A stretch of 64,000 nt of DNA from Bryobacterales bacterium (GTDB taxonomy: Bacteria > Acidobacteriota > Terriglobia > Bryobacterales > Bryobacteraceae). The notes beneath the pieces were generated by a model, which worked only from the letters and a program-made list of their open reading frames with translations, was not told the DNA's origin and ran no database searches. This document shows positions 15,938 through 61,517 of the stretch, in pieces. The translations under genes and the position numbers were made by a program. The stretch covers positions 926,144 through 990,143 of the forward strand of contig CAVYZD010000001.1 in NCBI GenBank assembly GCA_963772905.1, read 5' to 3'. How positions within the stretch are numbered: the stretch's first letter is position 1; each line of letters begins with the position of its first letter.

Positions 15938-16039
15938 TTTTCTTCCTATTGCCCAATTTTCCTGGCCAACAAACGCGCAACAGCCTACAGCAGGGCGCCG
16001 CAACGCGACAAGCTTTAAGCGGCGGACGGAGCGTCCTCT

Positions 16040-16687: not shown

Positions 16688-16695
16688 TGTTCACC

Positions 16696-17238: not shown

Positions 17239-17243
17239 CGCCG

Positions 17244-17423
17244 TTACCGCGAACGGCCTCCGTCTTGCTGCCGGTAGTAATCCGGGAAGCGTTCCTTTTC
17301 CGATTGAGGACGCGTCTCCCGTTCCGGGTGCGCGCGACGGCTTACAGGTTCACTTTCCGCGCGACCCCCGCGTTCACCGCGAATGCCCGCAAGGGCGCGG
17401 TCCATCTTCTCTCCGCTTGTCAT
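17244..17423 (-). CDS. possible 59-aa basic protein
   Basis: Own translation: AAGGAGG lies 8 nt upstream of the ATG at 17423. Product MTSGEKMDRALAGIRGERGG... It stops 5 nt before the next gene's ATG and is just under the track cutoff. Confidence 0.35.
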   Translation of the reverse strand: MTSGEKMDRALAGIRGERGGRAESEPVSRRAHPERETRPQSEKERFPDYYRQQDGGRSR

Positions 17424-17447
17424 ATAAGAAACCTCCTTTTCAAGACT

Positions 17448-18236: not shown

Positions 18237-18252
18237 AATTCACTTCCCCGCC

Positions 18253-19827
18253 TCATCGCCCGCCGTTCCAGTAGGGATTAGGCCGGTGCTTGCCGCGAAA
18301 TTCCCATCCCTCGAAATACGGCTTGCGCTTCGCATGGATAGGCCCGCCCACCTTCTCGCAAAACACGATCATTTCCCGGTCGTTCATCCGCATGACCTCG
18401 TGAGGCCGCACAAGCCTTTCCCATGCACGCCCGCTGCTTTCGCTGATGTCCACGTCACAGAGCCTGCCGGCGCGCCGGTTCTCGTTCTCGCGCACGCTGC
18501 CCGACGGCACGATCAATTCCCGGTCGCCGCACAGCGCCGAAATATATTCCGCGTCCGACTGCTCAAGATTGGCGCCGCCGAAGAAAATCTTGACCGCGCT
18601 GTTGCTCAGGAAGGTTCTCCACCCCTCATACCTGTACAGGGTCTGAAGCTGCGACAGCGATTGAAGCACCGGCCACAGTTGCAGGCCGGCGGCCCCCGCT
18701 GCTTGTGACATCGCCGCCTGAAACGTGTCGAGATGGCCGATGGAAAAGAACTCATCGACGATGCAGAGAACAGGAAGCCCGCGCGAACCGGCCTTGAGCA
18801 ATTCATTCAGCCATGCGGACACGCAGAGGCGGAACCACTTCACCGCGGGCGTGCCGAGCTTGTCCAGCGGCAAAACCAGGTAGGCCGTAATGGGCTTGTG
18901 TTTCATGTCACGCGGCCGGATGCCGTCTTGCAAGAGGGATTCCCGTATGCCCTCCATGCCCTCGAACGCCGTTTGCGTCCTGAAGGTCGAAACGATGTCC
19001 TCGACCGACCGGCTTTGTTCCGCCCCCTTGCCGGTGTAGCGGCTGCATTCCGCCTCGACCGCAGCATCCCCGCATTTTGCGAACCTCCTGGCGAAGCCGA
19101 ACACATCCCGACAGATCATGTCACGCACGGCGGGAAGGTTCTTTTCATCCTGCCGCCCGTCTTTCGTGAACACCGCCCGGATGCCGGTGGACTGGAGCAG
19201 CGCCGCGCTGTCGTTGAAAAACGCCGCGTTGTCGCCGCCGCCCGTTTCACGCGAGAACACCCCGTCCGTCACGCTGTCCACGTCACCGCCGAAGGAAACG
19301 GTTTTCGGGTCGAGAACGGCGAGGGGATTGAAGCCCACGACCTTGACGCCCGTGACTCCGTTTACCTTCAGGGTGCCGAAGGGATCAATCGCCACAACGT
19401 CGCTGTATCGCGCCGCCGCCGCGTGCGTGACCGCGCATAGCTCGCCCTTGGGGTCAATGATGAGCCGCGAGCATTTGCGGGCGGGACGTTCCAGCAGCGC
19501 CGGTGCAAGAACGGATGTCATTTTCCCGGTCCGCGCGGGCGCGATCAAGATGAGGTTTCCCGGCCCGCCGTAGTGCAGAACCTTGCCCGATTGCGACATG
19601 CCGATACGGATTCCCTTGCCCTTGAAGAGATCGGCGAGTTTCAGCAGCTTGTCACACGCCCAACGCGACGAGGCCGCGCTTTTGGGATTGGCATAGGCGA
19701 CCGGCTCCAGAACCTCGCTGGCTTGCTTCCGCCGTCTTTTGATCCGCTGGCCTCCCGTCTCTTGCGCCGCCATCACGAAAAACAAAACCAGGAATATCAA
19801 TACCGCCCACCCTTGGAGCGTTTCCAT
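18253..19827 (-). CDS. traG: type IV secretion coupling protein (TraG/VirD4 family)
   Basis: Walker A-like IAPARTGKMTS, then LIIDPKGEL, then Walker B VLCIVDEFFSIG. An N-terminal TM segment is present. Confidence 0.9.
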   Translation of the reverse strand: METLQGWAVLIFLVLFFVMAAQETGGQRIKRRRKQASEVLEPVAYANPKSAASSRWACDKLLKLADLFKGKGIRIGMSQSGKVLHYGGPGNLILIAPARTGKMTSVLAPALLERPARKCSRLIIDPKGELCAVTHAAAARYSDVVAIDPFGTLKVNGVTGVKVVGFNPLAVLDPKTVSFGGDVDSVTDGVFSRETGGGDNAAFFNDSAALLQSTGIRAVFTKDGRQDEKNLPAVRDMICRDVFGFARRFAKCGDAAVEAECSRYTGKGAEQSRSVEDIVSTFRTQTAFEGMEGIRESLLQDGIRPRDMKHKPITAYLVLPLDKLGTPAVKWFRLCVSAWLNELLKAGSRGLPVLCIVDEFFSIGHLDTFQAAMSQAAGAAGLQLWPVLQSLSQLQTLYRYEGWRTFLSNSAVKIFFGGANLEQSDAEYISALCGDRELIVPSGSVRENENRRAGRLCDVDISESSGRAWERLVRPHEVMRMNDREMIVFCEKVGGPIHAKRKPYFEGWEFRGKHRPNPYWNGGR

Positions 19828-47777: not shown

Positions 47778-50075
47778 CTATGCCGCCTCGATCAGGCGGA
47801 CCTCGCCGTTGCAGGACTCGATAGCCGACGTAACGATCCGGCGAATTTCTCCCAAGAACGCCGCCGACGGTTCCGTCATCACCGCATCGGGCACCGGCGC
47901 CGCTGCATCATAGATTCCGTGTATGGCGTTAGCCCGGCGGAAGGTCGATCCCGCTCCCCGCGAGCCCGGACCATCGTAGGCCGCGCGCCAATCCGCCAAG
48001 TGATGCTCGACGAGCCGCCGCACGACGAGATCGCGCAACGCGACCTCGATCACCTGCCGAATGCGGTCGATGGTCCTCTGGCCTTCGTCTTCGTCTTCCG
48101 GCTCGCGCGTCCAGCTGATGGGATTATTCAGAAACCGCGAAATCGATTCCCGCAGTTGGGTCGCTAGGTCCGCGATCGGCCGAAGGGTATCGTATTCGTC
48201 GTCAAGCTCGCCCGCGATCCGGCGGTTTAAGGCCTTAACACGCGTCCAATGCTCCTTGCGAAAACCCTCGTAAGTGCCGAGGCCGAGGCGGGCGAGCCAC
48301 GGCCCTTGAAACTTGCTGACGGCATCTTGCACGGCAAAACCGACGCCGGTCGGGTCGTAAACGGGCCGCGCCTCGGCGGGCGGCGGCGGCAGTATGGCTT
48401 GGCGGAAGAAATCAACCATCTCCGCAAGCTGTGATCGCATGTATTCCGCCGCCCGCGCCGGAAGCTTCGTCAGATGCCGGTCCACTCCGCCGAGCATGAA
48501 GCAGCGAGGGTCGATTCCGCGCTCGATTGCATTCACCACGGAGACGCCGAGAACGTCCCGCAGGCTGGAGAGCGCATTCAGAACCGACGCCATGACATGC
48601 GCGCGCTTATCGGCGAATTTTTGGAAGTTCTGACCCTTGATCTGATCGAAGTGGGTAAAGGCTACGGCGAGTTTCCGGTGATGCCCGCTCGATGCCACAG
48701 CCCTCAATACCGAAAGCGGCGCCGCCTGCATCGGCTGCTGCGCGTTATCGACGAGCAGAATTACGTCAACCTGCGCGAACCGGCGGGTCACATGGGTTGT
48801 GACGCTCGACGATGAGTCCGGGGTGTGTCCAAGGCCCTGCCCGTCAATCAGCACCAGCCGGGATTGGTCCTCCAGAAAGTCGGGGAACAATGGCCCGCGC
48901 ACGCGGATGCCGTCCACCAGCGGCGTCAGCAGCCGCCCAAATTGAGGCCAGTAATTGCTCGAAAACCACCGAATGTGCCGTATAAACTCATCACGGTCAG
49001 CTGATTCGAACACCCACAATTCCGGCCAGCCGGACGGCCGCCGCCGCAGCTCGCCGGCGGAAATGAAGTCGAACCGGCCGCGCACATCTTCGAGAATGTC
49101 CTGCACCAACTCATGAAAGGCTTCTTCCTGCGTCAGGTAGAGATCGAAGTTCTCCTCGATCAGTTGCTGCGCAACATCACGATCAGGCCCAGCCTCCCTG
49201 GGATCGACCCCCAGATCTTCATGCAGCTTGGCTTCGACCGCCCTGCTCAAATCGCCGATGCGCTCCAGGTAACGCGTAATCGCTTCGCGATTAGCGGCGC
49301 GCTCCGCTTCGGTCAGCGCGACCTCGTCGTCAAGGACCGCGGTTGAATCGCCGGCGTCGTCGAACGACATCTCGTCCTGTTCGTCGCCTCCTCCGTTCGC
49401 GCGCCAGCCGCCGAGAATATAGCTCAGCCGGAACTTCTGATCGCGATGGCTTAGGAACCGGTCCGCGATTTTGTCCAGCGGGGCTCTTTCAAGAATCGCA
49501 AGCGCGGCGTCAATGATGCATTCCTCGATGTTCGCCTGAGTCTGGAACTCCGTAAAGAAGGTGACCGCGGCGGCAAAGTCGCCGTCGGTCTGAATAACCT
49601 CGATATCGGCTATGGTCGTCTTGGCGGGCGCCGTGGACGGGAAGCGGTCCTCATCCGGATCGGAGCCGATCAGCTGCCGGAGAAGCGAAGTTTTGCCCGC
49701 CCCCGTGGTTCCGACGAACAGGACGTTGGGGTAGCCCTCATCCTTATTAGGAAGCCTGATGCTTGCTTCGCGCAGAGCTTCCGGGTCGTCGCGCCCCGCC
49801 TGGATTTCGTCGTAGAACGCTTCGACAACCGGCTTGGAAAACCGCATCTCGGCTTCGGACCGTTTTGCAGCGTTCCACCACGACTGATCGCCCAAAATCA
49901 CGTTCATTTCGGCGACCATCACCTCGGCTTCCGTCGCGTCCGACGTGCCTAAGCCGCGACGCATCTTCAGTCCGGCGCGGCCGCGGGCATCATTGCGAAG
50001 AGGATGCCGGAAGCTAACGGACCATCCAGGACGGTTCGATCGGGTTTTGCTGGCAGTGTAAGTTGCTTTGTTCAT
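47778..50075 (-). CDS. large P-loop GTPase-like protein (765 aa)
   Basis: G1 is GTTGAGKTS, G3 is LIDGQGLGH and a G4-like motif is AFTHFDQ. About 270 aa are inserted between G1 and G3. The start is set at the ATG 6 nt after GAGGA. Confidence 0.7.
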   Translation of the reverse strand: MNKATYTASKTRSNRPGWSVSFRHPLRNDARGRAGLKMRRGLGTSDATEAEVMVAEMNVILGDQSWWNAAKRSEAEMRFSKPVVEAFYDEIQAGRDDPEALREASIRLPNKDEGYPNVLFVGTTGAGKTSLLRQLIGSDPDEDRFPSTAPAKTTIADIEVIQTDGDFAAAVTFFTEFQTQANIEECIIDAALAILERAPLDKIADRFLSHRDQKFRLSYILGGWRANGGGDEQDEMSFDDAGDSTAVLDDEVALTEAERAANREAITRYLERIGDLSRAVEAKLHEDLGVDPREAGPDRDVAQQLIEENFDLYLTQEEAFHELVQDILEDVRGRFDFISAGELRRRPSGWPELWVFESADRDEFIRHIRWFSSNYWPQFGRLLTPLVDGIRVRGPLFPDFLEDQSRLVLIDGQGLGHTPDSSSSVTTHVTRRFAQVDVILLVDNAQQPMQAAPLSVLRAVASSGHHRKLAVAFTHFDQIKGQNFQKFADKRAHVMASVLNALSSLRDVLGVSVVNAIERGIDPRCFMLGGVDRHLTKLPARAAEYMRSQLAEMVDFFRQAILPPPPAEARPVYDPTGVGFAVQDAVSKFQGPWLARLGLGTYEGFRKEHWTRVKALNRRIAGELDDEYDTLRPIADLATQLRESISRFLNNPISWTREPEDEDEGQRTIDRIRQVIEVALRDLVVRRLVEHHLADWRAAYDGPGSRGAGSTFRRANAIHGIYDAAAPVPDAVMTEPSAAFLGEIRRIVTSAIESCNGEVRLIEAA

Positions 50076-50232
50076 GTTGTTCCTCGTTGTACCAGACCAG
50101 TATCGGGTCAACACTTAGCAGATGTCAAGTGAATTCTGGAACAACACGCTACAACATTGCTGGATGGCGCTGAACAGTGTCTTCTATCGAACTGATACTT
50201 AAGCGCTTATGAACACTTAACCAATTGCGCAT

Positions 50233-51052
50233 CTACTCGGTTTGGTCGCCCCTCACAAATGAGGCGCGCCACGTCTCGGGCCTGAGGCTGACCGCTTTTT
50301 CCAGCGGCGGCGCGATTGTGAAGATCCGCGGCTCCGTCGAGAACAGATGAACGCGGTAGATGCGCCAATCATTGGGTCGGTCAGTCGCCACAGCGCGTTC
50401 GGTGCGGGTGAGGAAAAAAGGCGTGCGCGCCGATCCGTTTGTGGTCTTTATCTCCAGGAGTCGCTCGCGACCGTTCGGCTCGAAGGACAGCACATCGTAC
50501 CCCGCTCCATCGCCCTCCTCCGCTGAAATCCAGCGAATCTTATGGGCGAGGTCCGGGCGGTCGGTTCTACTGAGACGAAGCTTCTCGACCTCGATCACGA
50601 ACTCCTCGCCCGCCCGACCGAGCAATCGGTTCCGGTGGTCCCTTTCCACCGGATCGAATTTCTTCACCAACCTTCGCAAACCCGGTGGAATAGTTTCTTC
50701 GGCAAGCACAGGCGGAGCGACAAAAATCTCCTCGTCCGCGGCAAGCAGAGGAGGCGGAGCAGCGACAGCCTTGAGAAAGCCAGGGTGCTTGCTCAGGTAG
50801 CGGTCGATCGCGTCGAAAATGGCGTTTTGATAGTTCCTCTTTGGAATGTACCCACGAATCCACGGCATCCCCAACTCATCCAGCACGGCGGAGATGTTCT
50901 GATGTTTGAATTCGACGGACCGGTGCGTCCGGCCGATCCGCTCCATAAGGGCCTTGCTGTGGTGAGATTTGACGTACGGCCTGCCTGCGAGGTCCGCTTC
51001 GAGCATCGCAAAATAATCTGCGACAATCGCGTCGAGTTCGTCGTCCTCCCAG
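50233..51052 (-). pseudogene. DUF3883-domain protein gene interrupted by IS3-family element
   Basis: The C-terminus GYDVLSFEPNGRERLLEIKTTNGSARTPFFLTRTERAVA...WRIYRV matches the DUF3883 pattern. The first 11 codons (MANEAKIGRNW) lie at 52488-52456 on the other side of the IS. Confidence 0.8.
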
Positions 51053-51153
51053 TGACCTGCCTCGGTTTTCTCTACCAAAGATAATTGAGACGCTTCCGTC
51101 TAATTTAACTCCTCTTCTGCCATCCCGTCGGAGCCGCCCGTCGCAATCACCTC

Positions 51154-52089
51154 TCATGCAGAACGGCACGGAGCGGTCAAGGGCGCGCCAATCGGCGCGG
51201 CGTCAGCGAACCCTTGATCGCGAGTACCGTTCTGCGACTCCGACTCTGCTGGCGGGCGGCGACCAGGCGGGATGGCAGTAACCTCCATCCTGTTGGTGAG
51301 CTTTGAGCAGATTTCGGCGTATTCTTCCGGTGTTCGGTACGCCAGACTGCTATGCGGACGCTCGGCGTTGTAGTCCATCCGCCATCGCTCGATCTTTTCC
51401 TTCGCATCGGCAAGCGTCGTGAACCAGTGATGATTCAAACACTCGTCACGAAGCCGACCATTAAAGCTCTCCACGTGTCCGTTCTGCATCGGCCGTCCGG
51501 GCTGAATGTGGATCAGCCGAATACCTCGTTCCTCGCACCAGACCAGGAAGTGGCGACTGGTGAACTCCGGGCCGTTGTCGCAGCGAATTACTTCCGGTGT
51601 TCCTCGCCGGCTGATGATCCACTCCAGCACGCGCGTCACTCGTCTGCTTGACAGCCCCGTATCCACCTCGATCGCCGGACACTCCCGCGTGAAGCTGTCA
51701 ACGACCGTCAGCATGCGCAGCCCTCGCCCAGTAGCCAGTCCATCGGCCACAAAATCGATGGCCCATTCCTGATTGGCCCGGCTCAACAAAGCTCCCGCCG
51801 GCGCCGGCCGCACTAATCGTTTCCGCTTCAGCCGCCGCACCGCCAGATGCTCCTGGCTGTACACGCGATACACCCGTTGCGGACTAGCTCGGCATCCTCG
51901 CCGTTCCAGGAGTGCACACAAACGCCGATATCCGAAGCGCGGCTTCTGCCGCGCCAGTGCGATTAGCTCGCGACGCAGCTCCGCGTTGTGGTCCGGCCGC
52001 GGCCGATATCGGTAACTGCTTCGATCCATCGCCAGCAGCTTGCAGGCTTCGCGTTCCGTGTAATGAAACTCGCTCATCACCAACGCCAC
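51154..52089 (-). CDS. IS3-family transposase OrfB (rve/DDE integrase core; expressed as OrfAB by -1 frameshift)
   Basis: ...WAIDFVADGL...RCDNGPEFTS...MQNGHVESFNGRLRDE. The -1 frame from the A6 run reads straight into this ORF. Confidence 0.9.
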   Translation of the reverse strand: MALVMSEFHYTEREACKLLAMDRSSYRYRPRPDHNAELRRELIALARQKPRFGYRRLCALLERRGCRASPQRVYRVYSQEHLAVRRLKRKRLVRPAPAGALLSRANQEWAIDFVADGLATGRGLRMLTVVDSFTRECPAIEVDTGLSSRRVTRVLEWIISRRGTPEVIRCDNGPEFTSRHFLVWCEERGIRLIHIQPGRPMQNGHVESFNGRLRDECLNHHWFTTLADAKEKIERWRMDYNAERPHSSLAYRTPEEYAEICSKLTNRMEVTAIPPGRRPPAESESQNGTRDQGFADAAPIGAPLTAPCRSA

Positions 52090-52103
52090 ATCCTGCCTTC
52101 GAC

Positions 52104-52406
52104 CTACAAGCTCCAGCCGTTTTTTCGAATCACCGCTTTCAGCGCTTCTTTGTCCAGGCTGAGATCGGCGACCATGTGCTTCAGCCGGCGGTTTTCGTCT
52201 TCCAGCTCCTTCAAACGGCGTGCTTCATTCACTTCCATGCCGCCGTACTTGCTCTTCCACGTGTAGATCGTCGCCTCGCTGACGCCTAGCTCCCGCGCGA
52301 CTTCTTTCACTGTCCGGCCTGCTTCCACCTGCTTCAGCACGCCGATGATTTGTTCTTCTGTGTGTTTGCCCTTTTTCATTCGAAGCTCCTTTTCTTCGTC
52401 TTTCAC
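52104..52406 (-). CDS. IS3-family transposase OrfA
   Basis: KKGKHTEEQIIGVLKQVEAGRTVKEVARELGVSEATIYTWKSKY is followed by a leucine zipper. The slippery A_AAA_AAC motif lies at about 52119-52126 (complement). Confidence 0.9.
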   Translation of the reverse strand: MKDEEKELRMKKGKHTEEQIIGVLKQVEAGRTVKEVARELGVSEATIYTWKSKYGGMEVNEARRLKELEDENRRLKHMVADLSLDKEALKAVIRKNGWSL

Positions 52407-52646
52407 TGCTGGAGCTTCTCAATTATGGCTGGAGGAGATTATCGAGGGCAGGTCACCAGTTCCTGCCGATTTTTGCTTCGTTAGCCATGATTACACGGTG
52501 CTCTACCCTAAACGAACATTATCCTCGGATTCGCGGGCAAGGCGGTCTTGCCCGTTTTTGCTACATTTCCACATGAGACTAAACCGTTCTCTGTAAGCAG
52601 CACAATGGCGGCTGCAGTAGCATTAAGGGGCCGCACTACAATAGAG

Positions 52647-53114
52647 ATGCAATCAATGAAGGCCCCGTCTTTTGTTGGCCGAAAGCCGTCATCCAAAGCC
52701 GCCTCACAATCAAAGCGGATGAACCGAAGTGTCGACACCGCGCATGAAAAGCTCCTGCGCCAAGCTTTGTGGAGACACGGTCTTCGTTATCGGAAGAATC
52801 TCGCGACGCTTCCCGGTAAGCCAGACATCGTATTCGGCCCTGCACGCGTCGCGGTTTTCTGCGACGGCGATTTCTGGCACGGCAGAAACTGGCAGCGGCT
52901 CTCGAGACAACTCAGGAAGCGAGCCAACGCCGATTACTGGTGCCAAAAGATTCGGTCCAACATGCTCCGTGACCGCCGCATCACAACGCTCCTCCAGAAG
53001 CAAAACTGGTTCGTCCTTCGGCTCTGGGAGCGGGATATTCTCGCAGATCCTGAGCGAGCAGCTTGCCATATCCAAAACGTCGTTGCCGAACGATCCGCAC
53101 GCCGGCGGCTGTAG
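52647..53114 (+). CDS. vsr: very short patch repair endonuclease
   Basis: ...LRQALWRHGLRYRKN...LPGKPDIVFGPARVAVFCDGDFWHG...YWCQKIRSNMLRDR...LRLWE. The start was chosen to give about 155 aa and is uncertain (52605-52656). Confidence 0.85.
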   Translation: MQSMKAPSFVGRKPSSKAASQSKRMNRSVDTAHEKLLRQALWRHGLRYRKNLATLPGKPDIVFGPARVAVFCDGDFWHGRNWQRLSRQLRKRANADYWCQKIRSNMLRDRRITTLLQKQNWFVLRLWERDILADPERAACHIQNVVAERSARRRL

Positions 53115-53115
53115 C

Positions 53116-53979
53116 CTACGCGCGGTGCTCCTCTATTTGATCGTTGCGCCAAGTCTCAAGAGCACTCTTCAACCCAACGTCCTTTACGCCGTGCGGAAGG
53201 TGTCTTATCATGCGCACACGATCGAAGACCAGGCCTTTCACCTCTCGCGCCACATCGTGCCATTCATCGTCCGTGATTACACACGGAACGGCAAACCCGG
53301 CGATAGGGTCAGAAGCCCAATGAATATACTGAGTCCATGATGCCATGGGCAGTTCGTGCGTCTTATCTCGCCAATCGTGGCCGGCCGCACATTGAGAAAG
53401 AACTACGAGTTGCCCCGATCGACGACTAGCATAGTCTGGCTCCGCAAATGGCAGCCAAGAAATGACATCTACGCCCCGATCTTTGTATTGGGTGGCGGGT
53501 GCCTCGACAAAACGCTCTCGAAGCAGCTCACACGCCTGCTTAACTCTCTCCCCAATAGCTTTCTGCACGTTCGGCAGCGCCGGCCAGCCAAAAACAAACA
53601 CCTCCCCATTTATGTGGTGCGCGATCGCTTCAGCGGACATCCGCTCAAATAGCTTGGGGTCGGCGCCTGTCTGGGCCGAAGCACCATAGAGTGAGAAGAA
53701 CAAGCAAGTTTCATACTCTAGCCTGCCGTCCTTGACGTCATCTCGCCGCACAATCAGGTCCCCCTGGATTTCAAAGAATGGCGAAGAGTACAATCCTGCC
53801 CGCCGACGTAAGTGTTGCCAGATGTCAGATAGATAGGCCTCGCTTGGCTCGTCTCCACTGGCATCCCGAATGATCGCCGCCACGCGCGACTTTGAGAACG
53901 CCGCTTCGCCCAAACTCAATTCGAGTTCTATCCAGTCGGCTACGCGCTCGGCATCATCCGCATCGTCGAGGGCTAACAT
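53116..53979 (-). CDS. hypothetical protein (287 aa), coupled to ParB-like gene
   Basis: The ORF starts 2 nt after the upstream stop. No motif was recognised. Confidence 0.55.
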   Translation of the reverse strand: MLALDDADDAERVADWIELELSLGEAAFSKSRVAAIIRDASGDEPSEAYLSDIWQHLRRRAGLYSSPFFEIQGDLIVRRDDVKDGRLEYETCLFFSLYGASAQTGADPKLFERMSAEAIAHHINGEVFVFGWPALPNVQKAIGERVKQACELLRERFVEAPATQYKDRGVDVISWLPFAEPDYASRRSGQLVVLSQCAAGHDWRDKTHELPMASWTQYIHWASDPIAGFAVPCVITDDEWHDVAREVKGLVFDRVRMIRHLPHGVKDVGLKSALETWRNDQIEEHRA

Positions 53980-53981
53980 CG

Positions 53982-55157
53982 TTATTCCTTAACAGTCCTT
54001 AGTACGCGTCCCGCCGTATCGACACATTTCTCCGCTTCTGCTATTACTTCTGCCGTCTTATGGCGATGAACTACACCTAGCGCCTTTTCTAACTTGGTGC
54101 TCGCCGTTCCCAACAGTTTGCGTACCATGGTCTCCTCGCCGTCCGACATTTCATACGCCTCACGAAGATCACGATTGTTGCGTAAGTACTCAACTGCAGC
54201 CGGGCTGGCGACAACATGCGACAAGTAGTTGGTGATGTCCCTTGATTCCTTAATCACGGGCCGCACCTTGGTTCCCTCCCCATAAATCCACGATAGAAAA
54301 TCTCGAAGGTTCTTCAGGTGCGTCTCTGGGATAGGCTCTTCAAGATCCACCTCGTCCAAAGGAAGAACCTTAGCTTTGTCAGAAGTCTTGGTCGGCTTGG
54401 CCCAGCCGAGAAAGATCTTTATGTTGCGTTGCCCGATTGCGAGGACCATATACGAGAAGTCCTCCTTTGCCCGCGAGATGTCCCAATCAAGATCGGTCCG
54501 TGCCTGTTGGAGGATGAAGTACGACACAGCATTCTTGAGGACACCTTGAGACCTGTCTCCCACTTCCTGCTCGATTTCCTCAATTTTCTTACCCTCATCA
54601 AGCATTTTGGCGATATAGCGAGCCTTAGCATAGCTGTCCCATTTCTTGTTGCCAGTGATGTGCCGGACGCCTAAGTACGGGAGTACTTCCTTCCGCGTCG
54701 GATAAATTATCACTGGCAGTTCGTCCAGGTCCTTGCGTACTGCGGGAGAGATTTCGGGCCAACCGCGAACATGGAGCTTCTTCCGCGTTGTGGCCTCACG
54801 AAGAATTCGGGCAGTGGCCAACCGACGATTTCCCTCAACAACGGTAAACTCAGCGTCAGTGAGGAAGGCTAGATATTCCTTTGAGGGCGTCTCGCCTGTT
54901 TTTGGTTGAAGTTTCTTAGGAAGGTCGTCTGGCACGGCTACAAGTGGCTCTTCATCGAAGTAACCGTTTTGAGCCATAGGCGCCGCAATCTCATCCAAGT
55001 CGAAGTGCTCGTAGAGATGTTGAAGCAATTCGTCCTCATCAGTCCCTTGAATGTTTTCGGGCAGGCGAGGGTTTAGGGGATCCAAATGCAATTGATCGAT
55101 CGGGACGTTTCGGAGCGGTCTCTTGCGCCCCAGGGCTGCTGGTTGTTTGTTAGCCAT
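53982..55157 (-). CDS. ParB/Srx N-terminal-domain protein
   Basis: VPIDQLHLDPLNPRLP and VVEGNRRLATARIL are ParB-box-like blocks. The C-terminus is long and helical. Confidence 0.7.
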   Translation of the reverse strand: MANKQPAALGRKRPLRNVPIDQLHLDPLNPRLPENIQGTDEDELLQHLYEHFDLDEIAAPMAQNGYFDEEPLVAVPDDLPKKLQPKTGETPSKEYLAFLTDAEFTVVEGNRRLATARILREATTRKKLHVRGWPEISPAVRKDLDELPVIIYPTRKEVLPYLGVRHITGNKKWDSYAKARYIAKMLDEGKKIEEIEQEVGDRSQGVLKNAVSYFILQQARTDLDWDISRAKEDFSYMVLAIGQRNIKIFLGWAKPTKTSDKAKVLPLDEVDLEEPIPETHLKNLRDFLSWIYGEGTKVRPVIKESRDITNYLSHVVASPAAVEYLRNNRDLREAYEMSDGEETMVRKLLGTASTKLEKALGVVHRHKTAEVIAEAEKCVDTAGRVLRTVKE

Positions 55158-55285
55158 CTCGTTCGCTGCCTTCTATGATCCAGATTGCTCTACATAACAG
55201 GTTCGGTCGCGTCGGCCAACTTTGTGTCTCCTGGCCCTCAAGTGAGGACATGTGGTACAGGAGCTTGCTTGTAACTGAAACTCAC

Positions 55286-56296
55286 TCATAACTCTCTCCG
55301 AGGAAGCAGCCTCCCAAACGCAGCGTCCGACTCAATCAATGTGTCGGTGCTGACTGCCTCCAACGCAGAAAGATCAGCCCGAAAATGTACGTCGCTCACG
55401 CCAGCGGGCAAAGGACCCCGTATCGCAGGGATTTCACTGAGCCGGTAGAATCTGAGCGAAGATTTAGCGAGTTTAGAGTCGAATGCAAGTGCCAGCGAAT
55501 TCGTCAGGTCCGACCCGAGCGTGCCGGTCACCACATCGTGAAGTTTAAGCACGAGGTCAGGATAGGCTGCGATGCTCGTCTCAATCTCGGCGATGACCGA
55601 ACGCAGCGTGACGCCACCGGGCGATCGCTCGACAAACAATGAAGCCGCAATCGCGACTGTGGCAGGTGGCGGATTGCATTGTTCGTACGAGAAGGTATGC
55701 GCGCGAACACGTCCCGCAGTTGTCTTGACATCCATACGAATGTTGCCATCGGCGAAATCAAAGCGCGCTGTTTCATCTATCCGCCAAGCCGTCACTGCCG
55801 CCGGTGTGCTCTCGCTCATCGATAAGACGTACAACTCGCCGAAGAGACCGTTGACCGAACGTGACGGCGCCTTTTGCAACTTCTGAAAGATAGCTGCCAG
55901 CCTATGGACAGCGCTCGCAATCTCTCGCTGTCTCGGCCTATCGCCGACCATTCCGATGATCGTGTCGCAAACTGAAAGGAAATACCTTGCGGTTTCGGCA
56001 TCGAGAGAGCGACAGCGAACAACCGTGAAAAGGCCGGTCCGCTCGGCTTCCTTGCCTCGCTTAACGTGACACCGAAGCTCGAATTGAACATCGAGATTTT
56101 CCAGCCGAATCGGCGATGAAAGCCGCCCCTGCTCACTCGCGACGACAAGAAGGCAAGCGTGCCCCTCCCGGTCCTTTCCGACGAAGTAGCTTTCGTAGCC
56201 ACGGAGGGGCATTACCGAATAAATCGGCTTATCGAGGTTTTCCCCGGTCGGCGCCGCAAGGCCGTCGAAGATTCCTTCAAGGCGCGCTGCCATCAT
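55286..56296 (-). CDS. PD-(D/E)XK motif protein
   Basis: ...ELYVLS...FDFADGNIRMDVKTT gives a D..D.K arrangement. The ATG at 56296 overlaps the Z1 gene stop as ATGA. Confidence 0.7.
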   Translation of the reverse strand: MMAARLEGIFDGLAAPTGENLDKPIYSVMPLRGYESYFVGKDREGHACLLVVASEQGRLSSPIRLENLDVQFELRCHVKRGKEAERTGLFTVVRCRSLDAETARYFLSVCDTIIGMVGDRPRQREIASAVHRLAAIFQKLQKAPSRSVNGLFGELYVLSMSESTPAAVTAWRIDETARFDFADGNIRMDVKTTAGRVRAHTFSYEQCNPPPATVAIAASLFVERSPGGVTLRSVIAEIETSIAAYPDLVLKLHDVVTGTLGSDLTNSLALAFDSKLAKSSLRFYRLSEIPAIRGPLPAGVSDVHFRADLSALEAVSTDTLIESDAAFGRLLPRREL

Positions 56297-58530
56297 TCGG
56301 CCTGACCCGGCTGGTTCTGATCCAGCCAGCCACGAGCCATCCGAGCGGGCACCCATACCGCGAGCACGGGTACATTCTCCATAATCACTCGTTGGACGCC
56401 GCCCTCTTCTCGCGTCAGATCAAGCGTGTGTATCTGAATTGACACATTGCCATCCTCCCGGATCGCGCTGTCACCCGGATAAACCTCTCCACGACGCTCG
56501 CGGGGCTGTACTGGGGCAGCGCCTTGAAAGAGATTGGTGACCTCTCCGTTCTCGTCAATGCCGCGGCGTCTTCTGGAGGCGGGGCTCATGCGAAACACGG
56601 TACACACTTCGTCGGGATTATCTTCCAGTGCCTTACTCAACTGCAGAAGCAGGCCAGTGTAGCGCTGTGAATCGGTAGTGCCGGTGATGCGCATCCGGAC
56701 GAGTAATCGCTCTATGGCGTCGCGGAGTGGAAAATCTTCGCACACCTGATGCCTCTGAATGTCGGTGCGAGCCGGGTGCCCGTCATTATCGACAAATTGA
56801 AGACCCTGGATGAAACCGGTTACGGCATCACGGTTAGCCCGGACAACACTGTCAGACGATAGAACCACGCGGGGAGTGACCCAGTCATCTGAGAAACGGC
56901 CCCGCATGAAATCGAACTCAAGCACGCTATTCCGGCACGGCTGCAGCGCTGTATCCAACACAAAGGCTCTCTTCCACTCGTTTAGCGACCGGCCGTTGTC
57001 CTGAAACTCGCTTAATTGGCTGCGGATATCCTCTTCATGCTCCACGTAATTCTGGAATGCCGTTACTGTCCCCTGCTCCAGGTACACCCGGCAGTAACCG
57101 AGGTATCGTCTCTTGTACCCGAAGAAGCGTGCGCGCTGCTGTATGGTATCGGCGTTCCCCACTCCAATTCCGCGCGGCATATAGGTGACAGTGAGGCCTT
57201 CAACTGTGAAGCCGCGGTCCATTGCCTGCCCGCCCACCAATATCCAGCCGTAGGCGCTACGCCAATCAACTTCAGGAGTACGCCCTCCTACAGCGTTCAC
57301 CTCCATGAGCCGCGTATTCCGAAACGCAAATCGGAAAGAAGGAACAAGCTCATCAAACGCGGGAAGACCTGCTCTAACTGTCGCGGCTAGGTCGGTATAA
57401 GCTTCGCGGAACTCTTCGATCAACTCCTGCTTATCCGCATCGTCATCACGGAGATTCAGGATACGCTTCCACTCTTCAAAAATGTCCCGGACCCAGTTGT
57501 AGTATTCCCGATGCTGCGCAGTCCTGTGCGATGGGTGAACCAACATTGAGCGGTTCCCGGTATTCCGGCCCGCTTGTATTCCTGCGGTTACACCGACCAT
57601 GAAAACCTTGAGCGCTTCCAGGAGCGATTCCGGAGGCTCGTTCAGCGGATTGGCATTGGTTGGAACGTCCTGAGGTGGAATGACGCGCGCCAATCCGCCG
57701 TTGTCCGCAAAAAACTCCCGGCCACCGACATAGTCCGCGCCCGGATCGAGCACCTGGACAAAGTTCGGCGACAGGGAATCAATAATACTGATCAGGAGCG
57801 GCGCCTGTGGTGTCGCGGTGTATTGCAGGTAGGTCTGGTTCGGCAATTCCTGACGTAACTCCATGAGGCAGCGGTACGTCGTGCTTTCCTGGCCTTGCGC
57901 GACCTCGGTGTTCAGGCTCGCCTGGTCCGCCTCGTCGTCAATGATCAGCACCGGCGTGGCCTGCATTCCGACGGCACGAACGAGATCTCTGAGGTTCTGC
58001 AGGCGGCGATGATTCTTCAGAACAGTAATGAGGATCGTCTTCTTGAATTCTTCCGGTGTGCTGTCGTCCCGCCAATCGTCCAAAACATCGCGAATGGCTT
58101 GGACCGTAGGATCGTCATCGCCAGGATTCTGAAATTGAATCCACCGCCTCTCGCGGCCAGGCTCATCCAGTCTCAAGTCCCGACGCAGCCGCCCGGTAGA
58201 TTGCTCAAAGAGCGGGTTGGATGTGCCGGCAACGACAATCACAACATGGAAGGCGTTGTCGCGGGCTAATGCGGCAACCGTCTCAAAAGACATCGTCTTG
58301 CCGCTTTGAACGTAGCCAACCACGAGCCCGGTCTCCTGCCCGGCCGGCGCAGTGGGCGGTGTTCCTTTCGCAAGGATCGAGATCGCTGCTTCGCGGACGC
58401 CGTCTCGGCTGGCTTCAGGAACTACCGTCTGTAGAAACTCAAGCCCCTCTGGGCCAACAGTCGGTACCCAATTGCCCTCGGGTACGCCGTCCGGGTCGGG
58501 CTCTACAATGATTTGATCTCCATCTGCCAT
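56293..58530 (-). CDS. Z1-domain P-loop/helicase-like protein
   Basis: Walker A is GYVQSGKT and the DEAD-like Walker B is LIIDDEADQAS. The large C-terminal region is typical of Z1 proteins from dcm-linked restriction clusters. Confidence 0.8.
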   Translation of the reverse strand: MADGDQIIVEPDPDGVPEGNWVPTVGPEGLEFLQTVVPEASRDGVREAAISILAKGTPPTAPAGQETGLVVGYVQSGKTMSFETVAALARDNAFHVVIVVAGTSNPLFEQSTGRLRRDLRLDEPGRERRWIQFQNPGDDDPTVQAIRDVLDDWRDDSTPEEFKKTILITVLKNHRRLQNLRDLVRAVGMQATPVLIIDDEADQASLNTEVAQGQESTTYRCLMELRQELPNQTYLQYTATPQAPLLISIIDSLSPNFVQVLDPGADYVGGREFFADNGGLARVIPPQDVPTNANPLNEPPESLLEALKVFMVGVTAGIQAGRNTGNRSMLVHPSHRTAQHREYYNWVRDIFEEWKRILNLRDDDADKQELIEEFREAYTDLAATVRAGLPAFDELVPSFRFAFRNTRLMEVNAVGGRTPEVDWRSAYGWILVGGQAMDRGFTVEGLTVTYMPRGIGVGNADTIQQRARFFGYKRRYLGYCRVYLEQGTVTAFQNYVEHEEDIRSQLSEFQDNGRSLNEWKRAFVLDTALQPCRNSVLEFDFMRGRFSDDWVTPRVVLSSDSVVRANRDAVTGFIQGLQFVDNDGHPARTDIQRHQVCEDFPLRDAIERLLVRMRITGTTDSQRYTGLLLQLSKALEDNPDEVCTVFRMSPASRRRRGIDENGEVTNLFQGAAPVQPRERRGEVYPGDSAIREDGNVSIQIHTLDLTREEGGVQRVIMENVPVLAVWVPARMARGWLDQNQPGQAE

Positions 58531-58547
58531 AGCGTCGTCATCCTATC

Positions 58548-60083
58548 TTACGGCTCCGAAAGCGCCTCCCGGAGAATATCGTTCACATTGCGCCGCACCG
58601 TTCCCGCTTTGCGTACACCGGAATCGCGCGCCAGGACCTCCGCCAATCCAAGCGCAGCCGCCACGCGAAGGAGGGCTTCCACGTCCTCGATGTCGGTTTG
58701 GGCGAAGCGCACCATGAATGGATGTGACATTGAGACTCGGATATCGAGTTTTCTTGGCTCTTTCCGCGTCTCGGGAGTATCGCTAAGAGCCAGCCACTGG
58801 CTTTCGCTGGCATCATCTGCGAGCTCCACGTTTATCGACCAAATCTTGCCGCGGAACTTTACTTCAAACCGTCGATTGGCCAAAGTGGATTTATGGGGAG
58901 CCTCTCGCTCTGGGGTGTCCACTGGCGCCGCGCCTGCGACGGCTGGCAGGACTTCCGGCAGTTTTTTCTCCATGGCCTGCGCCGTGTTTGAGACGGCCTG
59001 CTTTGCTGTATTCGCCAGTTGAGCGCGAGCCGCGCGCACTCTGTAATTCTCCGCCTGCTTAAGCAGCGGCAATTCTTCACTGTCGAGATGGTCACGGAGA
59101 AGCTCTAGAAACGGCTGCTCGTTCTCGTCCCAGCGAAACCCGTCTTTCGTATGGCTGACCTCAAAGCCTTCGAGATGGAGCTCCCCGAATAGACGCTGGT
59201 ATCGGTAGCTGTTGGGATTGCCGAAAATGTACGCAGGGCGGTAGCCTTCATCCCCGGTACCCTGAATAACGCGCCCTCTGCGAAACAGAGAGAATCCGGC
59301 TCTTGCAACGCTTGCTGTCTCCCGCAGCGCTGCAAATCCATGTACGGCAAGACCATCGCCGAAATCAAACTCGATGGTCTTTCGCCAAACACGGTCTGGG
59401 CCGCCCTTATCCTTGTAATAGGGTGCCTTGAACACTTTTGGTTCTTTATAGGCCAGCGCCTCACCGTTGAAGCGCAAATCAAGCAAGCCGTCCCTTATGA
59501 ACCCTCTGTAGATATCGGTCAGGTGCTCCTTAAGCTTGGCCACCGTGCGTCCGACTGGGACGTGAAAAATGTCCTCCAGAATAACTTCCGTGTAATGGCT
59601 GGTGGGCTTCTCCGCTTTCTCGCGGATTTCCAACTCCTCGATGTCGTCATTGATAATGTTCTCGATGTCAAAGTGGATCGTGCGGGAAACCGACTCCCCG
59701 ATTGCGCAAGTGCGCACACTCCACCGCGGCGCGAACCAGCACGCGGCACTTTTCATCCCCATCCCAAACTCCGCAAGTCCCGATCGGTCCGGCGGAAGGG
59801 CTGCAGGACGGAACGCGCGGGCGTATTCCCGCTCAGAGATACCGGCAGCATTATCCCGTATCGATATTCGTGCGGGCGCCGTTGTGTTGATATCGACATC
59901 AACGCGCAGCTTGAAGGCCTTTCCTTCGATCTTTTCCAGGGCCTCGCGATGCTTGCTGAAGCTCTCTACAGCGTTATCGACGAACTCGCCCAACGCGAAC
60001 CAGGGCCTGTAGTTGAGGTGCCGCAAGACTGCGAGCACGCTGACGCCCGGTCGGATGTCTACCTTTTTAACTGGCACGGCCAA
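58548..60083 (-). CDS. GHKL (MORC/HATPase_c_3-like) ATPase
   Basis: N-box EFVDNAVES, G1 IRDNAAGIS and G2 GLAEFGMGMKSA are present. Confidence 0.85.
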   Translation of the reverse strand: MAVPVKKVDIRPGVSVLAVLRHLNYRPWFALGEFVDNAVESFSKHREALEKIEGKAFKLRVDVDINTTAPARISIRDNAAGISEREYARAFRPAALPPDRSGLAEFGMGMKSAACWFAPRWSVRTCAIGESVSRTIHFDIENIINDDIEELEIREKAEKPTSHYTEVILEDIFHVPVGRTVAKLKEHLTDIYRGFIRDGLLDLRFNGEALAYKEPKVFKAPYYKDKGGPDRVWRKTIEFDFGDGLAVHGFAALRETASVARAGFSLFRRGRVIQGTGDEGYRPAYIFGNPNSYRYQRLFGELHLEGFEVSHTKDGFRWDENEQPFLELLRDHLDSEELPLLKQAENYRVRAARAQLANTAKQAVSNTAQAMEKKLPEVLPAVAGAAPVDTPEREAPHKSTLANRRFEVKFRGKIWSINVELADDASESQWLALSDTPETRKEPRKLDIRVSMSHPFMVRFAQTDIEDVEALLRVAAALGLAEVLARDSGVRKAGTVRRNVNDILREALSEP

Positions 60084-60110
60084 TGAGGGTCATCCATCTT
60101 GCAAGATCAG

Positions 60111-61517
60111 TCACGCTGCTTGGACCGCAGCCTCCGCTTTCTCTGAGCTCCGCGGCGACCGCACGCGGCTTTCAGATGCATGCGCGTCAGGCTGTTCAGC
60201 ATCGCAAGCCAGAAGGTGTTCGGCAATCTTTTTCACGACGGTGACATTTACTGCGTTGCCCAAAGCTTTGAAAGCGCCTCCCTGAGTATCCGGGAGATAC
60301 TTAAGTCCACCCATGCTTTGAAGCCGGCTGCATTCACGGGTAGTCATATACCGACGCTCCCACGCGATCACAGGAACCTGGCTTGTCGTCATCGCCACAA
60401 GCGATGGCGCGGTCGTCGGGCGCTTGACTCGAATGCCCGATGCGCGAAACTGCAACACATACTTCCAGACGTCTCTTTCTTCGCCCTTACAGTTCCATTC
60501 GAATTTCTGGAAACTCGGCGCGAAGTCCCAAATCGAAGGCAGCCAATTGTCGATCCACTTCCTGTGGCGTTTATAGAGCTCCCGGTTTTGCCGAATAAAA
60601 TCGATCTTCCATTTCGGAAAAGCCTTCGTGCGTCCGCGGGCGTAGGGCGGCAGCGCGGCGATCACTTCCTTCCGGGACAGCCCGCGAAGGGACACACCCA
60701 TACTTCCCTTGAACGAGTCGAGACGCGTCAGCCCTGCTCCAGCCGGAGATTCGTCTTCGTACGGATAAGTTGCGCCGAATTCCATCGCCCAAATCGGAAA
60801 TGAGGGTAGCTCTTCTCGTTTCGGAAAGCGATCGAGAAATTTTTGCCAGGCACGAAGGTAAGTCAGGAAGGTTTTGGGCAGTGGCCGCGCGTCAGTCGGC
60901 GTCTTGTCGAGCACCGACCGAATTGAGAGCTCTATGTCTTTTGACGGCTCTGGCCAAGTGAAACCATCGAGCCCTCCGCGCCGGCCGACGATGAATGCGC
61001 GCTCCCGGATTTGGGGGACTCCAAACTGGTGCGGAGACGCCAACCCATCATCAACGCCGTAGCCTGCCAACCGTAAGCGATGCTCGATCGTCCGCCATGT
61101 CTTGCCCTGTCGGTGACGAACCAGGTTGGGAACATTTTCAATGATGAAGTAACGAGGCTTATGAGTACGCAGTATTTGAACTACATAGTCAATGAGATCG
61201 CCCCATTGCGGACATTGAAGACCCTCCTGCCAGCCTGCTTTTGAGAACGGCTGACACGGAAATCCGGCACAGAGGATATCGTGGGACGGGACCTCATCGA
61301 TGTCGAGCGTCCTTATGTCGCCGTGCGGAAGAAGTCCAAAATTCTTCTCATAAAGTGCGGCCAGGATCTCGTTGACTTCGCATGCGAACACGCATTTATG
61401 GCCTAATGACTGCAGCGCCAAATGAAAACCGCCGAGGCCGGCAAACAGATCCACGAACCGCAGGGGCTCATCCGCCTTGCTGTGCGCGCCGTGTCCGTTA
61501 TTGCGTCCTATCCCCAT
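60111..61517 (-). CDS. dcm: DNA (cytosine-5)-methyltransferase
   Basis: Motif I is DLFAGLGG, motif IV is GFPCQPFS and motif VI is ENV (IIENVPNL). Confidence 0.95.
   Translation of the reverse strand: MGIGRNNGHGAHSKADEPLRFVDLFAGLGGFHLALQSLGHKCVFACEVNEILAALYEKNFGLLPHGDIRTLDIDEVPSHDILCAGFPCQPFSKAGWQEGLQCPQWGDLIDYVVQILRTHKPRYFIIENVPNLVRHRQGKTWRTIEHRLRLAGYGVDDGLASPHQFGVPQIRERAFIVGRRGGLDGFTWPEPSKDIELSIRSVLDKTPTDARPLPKTFLTYLRAWQKFLDRFPKREELPSFPIWAMEFGATYPYEDESPAGAGLTRLDSFKGSMGVSLRGLSRKEVIAALPPYARGRTKAFPKWKIDFIRQNRELYKRHRKWIDNWLPSIWDFAPSFQKFEWNCKGEERDVWKYVLQFRASGIRVKRPTTAPSLVAMTTSQVPVIAWERRYMTTRECSRLQSMGGLKYLPDTQGGAFKALGNAVNVTVVKKIAEHLLACDAEQPDAHASESRVRSPRSSEKAEAAVQAA

What the first reader, a model, noticed from the sequence alone, without database searches (positions are those of the whole stretch)
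53116..55157. ParB-like protein plus coupled 287-aa unknown protein occupying the slot where an AIPR gene is expected
In the dcm/GHKL/Z1/PD-(D/E)xK clusters I know, the gene between the PD-(D/E)xK gene and vsr is an AIPR-family (abortive-infection-like) gene. Here that position holds a 391-aa ParB/Srx N-terminal-domain protein (DPLNPR and EGNRRLA boxes). It is translationally coupled by a 2-nt gap to a 287-aa protein with no motif I recognise. A 128-nt gap separates the pair from the upstream operon. The pair may be an alternative module of the same system or an independent two-gene defence unit.
Basis: partly seen in the sequence, partly recalled or inferred. Interest (0 to 1): 0.6.

Follow-up and report, generated by a model that had tools for sequence, protein, structure and literature searches.

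The report
ParB-like plus nuclease restriction pair
The two genes are a widespread, never-characterised pair, a ParB-type DNA-binding nucleotide switch plus a restriction-fold nuclease, that almost always sits beside a cytosine methylase, so it is most likely the DNA-cutting half of an undescribed kind of restriction-modification defence rather than a stand-in for an AIPR gene.

Summary
Two minus-strand genes of 391 aa (P, 53982-55157) and 287 aa (N, 53116-53979) lie 2 nt apart and 128 nt after the DUF4420 gene.

- **What they are.** P models as a ParB/KorB/Noc-type N-domain plus HTH, with an extra helical tail. N models as a winged helix plus a PD-(D/E)xK nuclease, closest to FokI and MspJI. 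Neither matches Pfam or NCBIfam.
- **Linkage.** In 80 genomes from more than 10 phyla, P is followed directly by N in 76. A C5-cytosine methylase is adjacent in all but two. The commonest layout is a P-N-dcm operon without GHKL/Z1/DUF4420.
- **The neighbouring module.** dcm-GHKL-Z1-DUF4420 clusters usually lack P-N. None of 43 sampled carries AIPR in this slot.
- **Modularity.** On the Dcm tree the two modules are gained and lost repeatedly. They are separate restriction-type modules that share one methylase here.
- **Prior record.** A distant version, phage Wphi orf98-orf96-mth, was catalogued as "RM-like" by Rousset et al. 2022, and no activity was reported for it.
- **This scan.** It has found the same cassette before on other DNA.

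The mechanism is inferred: nucleotide-gated P directs N to unmethylated DNA.

The parts
53982..55157 (-). P: 391-aa ParB-like protein. Residues about 15-165 form a ParB/Srx N-domain with the motifs D26-PLNPR31, N64-GYFDEEP71 and E108-GNRR112. Residues about 176-250 form an HTH region that follows Y161-LGVRHI167. Residues about 278-390 form a helical C-terminal domain.
   Evidence: AF2 model with pLDDT 86.4. Foldseek PDB hits to KorB 8qa8, ParB 7bm8/7bnk/6sdk and Noc 7ol9 at probability 1.0. Invariant motifs in 34 diverse relatives. PADLOC domain-level hits to PDC-M38A (2e-20) and PD-Lambda-5_A (3.5e-12). No Pfam or NCBIfam hit.
53116..53979 (-). N: 287-aa protein with an N-terminal winged helix (about residues 10-80) and a C-terminal PD-(D/E)xK-type nuclease. 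Invariant residues are E112, D167, D171, Q196, K206, D253, R254 and R256.
   Evidence: AF2 model with pLDDT 90.8 and pTM 0.90. Foldseek hits to FokI 2fok (1.6e-5), MspJI 4f0p, VC1899, Can2/Card1 and HindIII, plus many winged-helix hits. Invariant columns. No Pfam, NCBIfam or PADLOC model.
55158..55285 (-). 128-nt spacer holding a promoter-like element for the pair: TTGGCC (55219-55214), a 17-nt spacer containing TG, then TATGTA (55196-55191), 33 nt before the ATG.
   Evidence: The sequence was read. The block AACCTGTTATG(A/T)AG, preceded by TTGCGA/TTTGCC, is conserved upstream of P in close relatives L001/L008, L004 and L107 but not in distant ones. The consensus scan did not call it, so it remains an inference.
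60111..61517 (-). Dcm-type C5-cytosine methyltransferase, the presumed cognate methylase shared by the P-N pair and by the GHKL/Z1/DUF4420 module.
   Evidence: PF00145 at 2.9e-60. Homologs lie next to P-N in 73 of 75 loci that have one intact copy of each gene, and 51 of those lie directly downstream on the same strand.
52548..53114 (+). Vsr very-short-patch repair endonuclease, convergent with N. It is the usual companion of Dcm.
   Evidence: PF03852 at 2.7e-22. Vsr is found beside P-N-dcm in about a third of loci.
55286..60083 (-). A separate neighbouring module: GHKL ATPase (58548-60083), Z1 P-loop/helicase-like protein (56293-58530) and DUF4420 PD-(D/E)xK protein (55286-56356).
   Evidence: Pfam hits to HATPase_c_3, Z1 and DUF4420. 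M-G-Z-D is a nearly invariant four-gene unit in 80 metagenome loci, and only 5 of those carry P-N.

Best explanation
P and N are the two subunits of a restriction-type nuclease whose cognate methylase is the Dcm-family C5 methyltransferase of the same island. Shown here: P has the ParB/KorB/Noc architecture, meaning a nucleotide-binding N-domain followed by an HTH DNA-binding domain, plus an extra helical tail. N has a winged helix plus a PD-(D/E)xK nuclease fold. The two genes are translationally coupled, co-evolve as a unit, and are almost always linked to a C5 methylase. Inferred: P binds DNA and uses its nucleotide pocket (R111 and R112 retained, Asn in place of the ParB catalytic Glu) as a switch. 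m5C at the Dcm sites prevents productive engagement on host DNA. On unmethylated incoming DNA, P recruits or activates N, which cuts. In this window the pair has its own promoter and is a module distinct from GHKL/Z1/DUF4420. The two modules share one methylase, so this is a doubly armed R-M island on a mobile element.
For: Fold evidence: P matches KorB, ParB and Noc at probability 1.0 over 240-300 columns; N matches FokI, MspJI and HindIII nuclease domains and winged helices. Conserved catalytic-type residues persist across relatives only 25-55% identical to the window proteins. Coupling: the P-to-N gap is between -8 and +7 nt in nearly all of 75 loci. Pairwise identities of P and N correlate at r=0.87, against 0.36-0.39 for either one with Dcm. 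Methylase linkage: 73 of 75 loci have an adjacent C5 methylase, and 51 form a P-N-dcm operon, 15 of them with a 4-nt overlap. The apparent exceptions L070, L076 and L084 carry other PF00145 subfamilies. Independence from GHKL/Z1: only 19 of 80 P-N loci have it, and only 5 of 80 M-G-Z-D loci have P-N. On the Dcm tree the contexts are interleaved, with at least 13 changes of P-N and at least 19 of GHKL/Z1. Mobility: N is single-copy here and was not found in 40 relatives. The cassette occurs in more than 10 phyla, on a conjugative plasmid and in P2-like phages, where Wphi gp98 and gp96 are homologs (hhalign E 9e-42 and 4.5e-10) followed by Mth.
Against: There is no functional evidence anywhere. 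The P2-phage version was cloned as 'RM-like' (pFR107) by Rousset et al. 2022, and their text reports defence only for three other systems. A plain R-M system would often be expected to restrict at least some phages. N lacks the canonical Lys two residues after Q196, where A198 is nearly invariant. The invariant K206 must substitute if the site is active. P has Asn where ParB has its catalytic Glu, so hydrolysis is uncertain. No sequence profile links P to ParB. One MAG (L034) has P-N with no Dcm-family gene found, although the genome is incomplete. Hymenobacter humi (L041) has intact P-N beside a fragmented dcm, which may be long-read assembly error. Weak P/N-to-Dcm co-evolution leaves open how specificities are matched.
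Confidence: 0.6

Rival explanations
1. The pair is an accessory component of the GHKL/Z1/DUF4420 system, filling the role AIPR has in related operons, and works only with that system.
For: It lies directly after the DUF4420 gene here, in L001/L004/L008 and on a Neorhizobium plasmid. In four Bacteroidota loci it is inserted between the GHKL and Z1 genes (L065, L074, L075 and L078).
Against: About 75% of P-N loci have no GHKL/Z1/DUF4420. More than 90% of M-G-Z-D loci have no P-N. The pair has its own spacer and promoter-like element. No AIPR occupies the slot in 43 related loci.
Confidence: 0.1
2. The pair is a modification-dependent (Type IV-like) or methylation-independent nuclease, a split analogue of GmrSD/BrxU/SspE (ParB-fold NTPase plus nuclease). 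It attacks foreign modified DNA, and the neighbouring Dcm is not its protective partner.
For: The architecture parallels DUF262-DUF1524 enzymes. The MspJI nuclease domain, from a modification-dependent enzyme, is among the best fold matches. One P relative gives a faint GmrSD_N hit (E=0.036). No defence was reported for the cloned P2 version against eight ordinary coliphages.
Against: The near-obligate operon linkage to a C5 methylase (73 of 75 loci, often with overlapping stop and start codons) is the signature of a methylation-protected enzyme. An m5C-directed nuclease beside an active Dcm would be self-destructive.
Confidence: 0.12
3. P and N are a KorB/KorA-like regulatory pair, a DNA-sliding repressor plus partner, that controls expression of the methylase or of the mobile element. 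They are not a nuclease.
For: KorB is the top structural match of P. N begins with a winged-helix DNA-binding domain. The canonical Lys of the nuclease motif is missing.
Against: E112, D167, D171, Q196 and K206 of the nuclease fold are invariant across phyla, which is not expected of a degenerate scaffold. Controller proteins of R-M systems are small. The cassette moves as P-N-dcm into phages, plasmids and chromosomes, as defence modules do.
Confidence: 0.06

Closest known systems
P2-hotspot 'RM-like system' of Rousset et al. 2022 (PMC9122126, Table S5; phage Wphi orf98-orf96-mth)
   Same: The three-gene architecture is the same: a ParB-like protein, then an unannotated protein, then a C5-cytosine methylase. 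Wphi gp98 is homologous to P over 319 columns (hhalign probability 100, E 9e-42). gp96 is homologous to N (probability 96.7, E 4.5e-10), and the E, D, Q...K and DR-R motifs align.
   Different: The relationship is distant, about 28% identity for P. N was undetectable by tblastn against phage records other than one unannotated record from human faecal samples. The methylase is a shorter, different C5 subfamily on the opposite strand. The phage version sits in a prophage hotspot rather than beside a GHKL/Z1 module. It was only catalogued and cloned, with no activity or mechanism reported.
ParB / KorB / Noc CTP-dependent DNA clamps
   Same: The N-domain plus HTH architecture matches by fold. Motifs are positionally equivalent: NPR, G-x-x-x-P and G-N-R-R-x-A compare with the ParB boxes, on the basis of established knowledge of ParB motifs.
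   Different: No sequence-profile match exists. Asn replaces the catalytic Glu of GERR. There is no ParA partner. The C-terminal domain differs. The genomic context is a methylase plus a nuclease, not partition.
GmrSD / BrxU / SspE (DUF262 ParB-fold NTPase + DUF1524 HNH nuclease)
   Same: A ParB-superfamily nucleotide-binding module is coupled to a nuclease in a defence context.
   Different: Those enzymes are single polypeptides with an HNH-type nuclease and are modification-dependent or PT-sensing. Here there are two polypeptides, a PD-(D/E)xK nuclease, and obligate linkage to a C5 methylase. Pfam GmrSD_N was not matched (0 of 34 at E<=0.001).
PD-lambda-5 (Vassallo et al. 2022, PMC9519451) and PADLOC candidate PDC-M38
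   Same: The ParB-type N-domain of P matches the first ~160 positions of PD-Lambda-5_A profiles and positions ~58-350 of PDC-M38A. The authors describe PD-lambda-5 as a compact prophage RM+Abi system with a methyltransferase.
   Different: These are only domain-level matches to much longer profiles (428-592 and 715 positions). N matches no PADLOC model, so PADLOC would not call this system.
MORC/paraMORC-SFII helicase-Dcm-Vsr operons (Iyer, Abhiman & Aravind 2008, PMC2292703) and the MZA system
   Same: This describes the neighbouring GHKL-Z1-DUF4420-Dcm-Vsr module, which shares its methylase with the pair.
   Different: That literature does not mention a ParB-like component (0 occurrences). 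The window's proteins score far below the NCBIfam Mza cut-offs. AIPR is absent.

Membership tests
ParB/Srx superfamily (fold level) | ParB N-terminal domain fold with a Gly-x-Arg-Arg-type box at the start of a helix | tested here: met
   Foldseek probability 1.0 to KorB, ParB and Noc. E108-G-N-R-R112 is invariant and lies at the start of helix 110-120.
Canonical ParB/KorB/Noc CTPase clamps | Sequence membership (Pfam ParBc) and the catalytic Glu of the GERRxR box | tested here: not met
   No Pfam hit, even at E=10 or among 34 relatives. Asn110 is invariant at the Glu position.
Canonical ParB/KorB/Noc CTPase clamps | CTP binding, clamp closure and sliding on DNA | not testable with these tools
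   Needs biochemistry.
AIPR (PF10592) | Profile match to the AIPR domain | tested here: not met
   No Pfam hit for P or N. None among the 43 slot genes of related clusters.
DndB / DUF262 (GmrSD_N) | Profile match; DGQHR or DGQQR motif | tested here: not met
   0 of 34 P relatives match at E<=0.001; one gives a faint GmrSD_N hit at 0.036. The motif here is EGNRR.
PD-lambda-5 | Full-length match to PD-Lambda-5_A plus a PD-Lambda-5_B partner | tested here: not met
   Only the first ~160 of 428-592 profile positions are matched. N has no PADLOC hit at E<=10.
PD-(D/E)xK nuclease superfamily (N) | Restriction-endonuclease fold with conserved acidic residues and a Lys | tested here: inconclusive
   The fold matches FokI, MspJI and HindIII. 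E112, D171, Q196 and K206 are invariant. However, the Lys is not at the canonical +2 position, and no coordinates were available to check the geometry.
Restriction-modification system | A nuclease gene linked to a DNA methyltransferase gene | tested here: met
   A C5 methylase is adjacent in 73 of 75 loci.
Restriction-modification system | Cleavage of unmethylated DNA blocked by the cognate methylation; host-controlled modification of phage | not testable with these tools
   No experimental data exist. The only cloned relative has no reported activity.
P2-hotspot 'RM-like' cassette (Wphi orf98-orf96-mth) | Homologs of both gp98 and gp96 next to a C5 methylase | tested here: met
   hhalign E 9e-42 for P against gp98 and 4.5e-10 for N against gp96. 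Mth is adjacent.
MZA system (neighbouring genes) | NCBIfam equivalog scores for MzaB/C/D, plus an AIPR protein (recalled as MzaE; not checked here) | tested here: not met
   Scores of 16.9, 92 and 20.1 bits against cut-offs of 850, 1500 and 420. No AIPR was found.

The most novel reading that the evidence does not exclude
P is a true ParB-type nucleotide-gated clamp. It loads on unmethylated Dcm sites, closes around the DNA, slides, and carries or activates the N nuclease. This would define a new class of restriction enzyme in which long-range communication along DNA is driven by a CTP/NTP switch of the chromosome-partition type rather than by an ATP-dependent motor.
Probability: 0.25. Interest if true: 0.85.

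Novelty: new variant of a known kind. Interest (0 to 1): 0.6.

Why it matters
If the reading is right, a large family (more than 1000 clusters at 50% identity, found in over ten phyla, in plasmids and in P2-like phages) is an unrecognised restriction enzyme type. It is built from a ParB-fold nucleotide switch and a new PD-(D/E)xK nuclease family. It is missing from Pfam, NCBIfam and PADLOC, so defence-system censuses overlook it and count its methylases as orphans or assign them to other systems. It would extend the ParB CTPase-clamp paradigm from chromosome segregation and gene silencing to immunity. The window also gives a clear case of one methylase serving two interchangeable nuclease modules, which bears on how R-M islands are assembled.

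Tried and rejected
- **Profile libraries.** Pfam, NCBIfam and PADLOC scans of P and N, and of 34 diverse relatives of each, gave no family for N and only domain-level PADLOC hits for P.
- **Solved structures by sequence.** Sequence-profile searches of the PDB gave nothing meaningful. Only fold comparison worked.
- **AIPR and DndB identity.** Both were rejected.
- **PD-lambda-5 and PDC-M38 membership.** Both were rejected as partial domain matches. No paper mentions PDC-M38.
- **Literature.** Searches for a ParB-linked cytosine-methylase restriction system found nothing specific.
- **Gene fusions.** I looked for P-N fusions among the best 150 N relatives and found none.
- **Missing methylases.** I looked elsewhere in the genomes where the pair lacks an intact neighbouring dcm. 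None was found, but those genomes are incomplete or come from long-read assemblies, so the result is inconclusive.
- **Promoter motif.** The motif upstream of P is conserved only in close relatives, so it is not a family-wide operator.
Full report
**Observation.** The minus strand carries the following genes:
- dcm (60111-61517, PF00145)
- a GHKL ATPase (58548-60083)
- a Z1 protein (56293-58530)
- a DUF4420 PD-(D/E)xK protein (55286-56356)
- a 128-nt spacer
- a 391-aa ORF, called P here (53982-55157)
- after 2 nt, a 287-aa ORF, called N here (53116-53979)

The same notes describe an IS3 element splitting the next gene, which encodes a NOV_C/DUF3883 protein.

**What the proteins are.** Neither protein matches any Pfam or NCBIfam model, even at E=10. 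The same holds when 34 relatives sharing only 25-55% identity with the window proteins are scanned one by one.

PADLOC matches only the N-terminal part of P. The hits are PDC-M38A (2e-20, positions 84-336 of 715) and the first ~160 positions of PD-Lambda-5_A profiles. PADLOC has no match for N.

AlphaFold2 models built on alignments of 63 and 71 homologs are confident. P has pLDDT 86.4; N has pLDDT 90.8 and pTM 0.90.

Against the PDB, P matches C-terminally truncated KorB, ParB and Noc over 240-300 columns at probability 1.0. It therefore has both the ParB nucleotide-binding N-domain and the following HTH domain, plus an extra helical C-terminal domain.

N matches FokI, MspJI, VC1899, Can2/Card1 and HindIII. 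Its first ~80 residues match many winged-helix domains. N is therefore a winged helix plus a PD-(D/E)xK nuclease.

Residues invariant across phyla:
- In N: E112, D167, D171, Q196, K206, D253, R254 and R256. The D...Q pattern recalls what I remember of the MspJI motif (D...QxK), which I did not check here. In N, however, the Lys is ten residues downstream of Q196 rather than two.
- In P: NGYFDEEP (64-71), E108-G-N-R-R112, and Y161-x-G-x-R-H-I167. Measured against the ParB GERRxR box (established knowledge), the two arginines are kept and the catalytic Glu is Asn. Nucleotide binding is therefore plausible and hydrolysis is uncertain. Both statements are inference.

**Linkage.** Homolog searches returned 1222 relatives of P and 205 of N, many on contigs of identical length. 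A full HMM search found 2049 clusters (50% identity) for N at E<=1e-3 and 1082 at E<=1e-10. Complete entries among the best 150 are mostly 260-330 aa, and none of the 150 is long enough to be a fusion.

I fetched 80 genome loci holding a P relative. They come from Bacteroidota (39), Acidobacteriota (12), Planctomycetota, Verrucomicrobiota, Pseudomonadota, Nitrospirota, Chloroflexota, Ignavibacteriota, Saccharimonadota, Zixibacteria and two archaea.
- **P followed by N.** N directly follows P in 76 loci. Of the other four, three are cut by a contig end (one also has a frameshifted P), and in L083 a Vsr gene follows P instead of N. The gap is between -8 and +7 nt in nearly all cases.
- **Methylase.** Among the 75 loci with one intact copy of each gene, 73 have a C5-cytosine methylase beside the pair. 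In 51 it lies immediately downstream on the same strand, and 15 of those overlap by 4 nt. L070, L076 and L084 looked like exceptions but carry other PF00145 subfamilies. Only L034 (an orphan pair) and L072 (a contig end) have none.
- **Co-evolution.** Pairwise identities of P and N correlate at r=0.87. Each correlates with Dcm at only 0.36-0.39. P-N is thus a tight unit and the methylase is more exchangeable.

**Relation to the GHKL/Z1/DUF4420 module.**
- Only 19 of the 80 P-N loci also carry GHKL/Z1(/DUF4420).
- Conversely, 80 metagenome loci fetched with a Z1 alignment show a nearly invariant dcm-GHKL-Z1-DUF4420 unit, and only 5 of them have P-N.
- The gene after DUF4420 in 43 such loci is Vsr (7), another C5 methylase (2), P (2), or unrelated singletons. 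None is AIPR.
- On a tree of 98 Dcm proteins, the P-N-only, GHKL/Z1-only and combined contexts are interleaved, with at least 13 changes of P-N and at least 19 of GHKL/Z1. The window's nearest Dcm relatives are GHKL/Z1-only.
- In four Bacteroidota loci the pair sits between the GHKL and Z1 genes.

The two are therefore separate modules that each partner the same methylase family and are often combined. The 128-nt spacer holds a sigma-70-like element, TTGGCC-N17-TATGTA at 55219-55191, that is conserved in close relatives only. This fits separate transcription.

**Mobility.** N is single-copy in this genome. It was not found in 40 relatives, 24 of them from the same genus. A Neorhizobium conjugative plasmid carries Z1-DUF4420-P-N, with P and N both annotated 'hypothetical'.

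**Comparison with the literature.** After reaching the R-M reading (stated), I found that this scan has met the same cassette on other DNA several times. Two leads from those notes were tested here.

The first lead was the P2-like phages.
- P has homologs at about 28% identity in P2-like phages.
- In phage Wphi, orf98-orf96-mth has the same layout.
- gp98 aligns with the P profile at E 9e-42. gp96 aligns with the N profile at E 4.5e-10, and the catalytic-type motifs line up.
- Rousset et al. 2022 list 'DNA_methylase + hypothetical + ParBc' as an 'RM-like system' of the P2 hotspot. They cloned it from E. coli ATCC9637 as pFR107.
- Their text reports defence for three other systems only. The cassette is catalogued but has no demonstrated function.

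The second lead was the GHKL/Z1 module. It fits the MORC/paraMORC operons of Iyer et al. 2008, where AIPR appears as a common R-M-operon gene. That paper does not mention ParB.

PD-lambda-5 is described as a compact RM+Abi system with a methyltransferase. It shares only the ParB-type N-domain with P.

**Interpretation.** The near-obligate operon linkage of a nuclease-fold protein to a methylase is the signature of restriction-modification. I therefore read P-N as a two-subunit restriction enzyme protected against by Dcm methylation, with P as the DNA-binding, nucleotide-gated partner (confidence 0.6).

Points against this reading:
- The canonical Lys position in N is empty.
- P has Asn in place of the ParB catalytic Glu.
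- One pair has no methylase (L034), and one sits beside a fragmented dcm (L041). Both cases are of doubtful quality.
- The cloned phage version has no reported activity.

The rivals I weighed are an accessory of the GHKL/Z1 system, a Type IV-like enzyme, and a KorB/KorA-like regulator. They are scored in their own section.

The most novel reading still open is that P is a true sliding clamp that delivers the nuclease.

**Verdict.**
- The AIPR premise is not supported.
- The pair is real and widespread.
- It is uncharacterised and absent from the main family and defence databases.
- I class it as a new variant of a known kind, restriction-modification.

Noticed in passing
L134:13142-14410, L135:13142-14221, L143:10837-12042: An unannotated protein family of about 400 aa, with no Pfam hit, follows the DUF4420 gene on the same strand in three dcm-GHKL-Z1-DUF4420 loci. 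Shorter relatives lie on the opposite strand in L106 and L110. It may be another accessory of that module.
   Followed up: partly
L084:5344-9722: Next to a P-N pair lie two C5 methylases of other subfamilies and a 691-aa protein that combines MTaX1, Mrr_N and GmrSD_N domains. This is a different methylase-associated ParB-fold protein in the same island.
   Followed up: no
L065, L074, L075, L078 (Bacteroidota): In these loci the P-N pair is inserted between the GHKL and Z1 genes, giving the order dcm-GHKL-P-N-Z1-DUF4420. The two modules are physically interleaved there.
   Followed up: partly
window 47778-61517 compared with L001 and L008: The whole island order, vsr-dcm-GHKL-Z1-DUF4420-P-N-NOV_C followed by a protein of about 770 aa, is syntenic with Terriglobia genomes whose P is about 79% identical. 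The window differs in two ways: vsr is relocated and inverted between N and NOV_C, and there is an IS3 insertion.
   Followed up: partly
L041 (Hymenobacter humi) 13955-19061: dcm is in three fragments and Z1 in two, while P and N are intact ORFs. No other Dcm-family gene was found in that genome. This is either decay of the methylase beside an intact pair or indel errors in a long-read assembly.
   Followed up: partly
window 55191-55219 (-): A promoter-like element, TTGGCC-N17(TG)-TATGTA, lies upstream of P. The core AACCTGTTATG(A/T)AG is conserved in L001/L008, L004 and L107 but not in distant relatives.
   Followed up: yes
window 50233-51078: The IS-split NOV_C/DUF3883 gene matches the PADLOC candidate PDC-S36 at 1e-107.
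   Followed up: no
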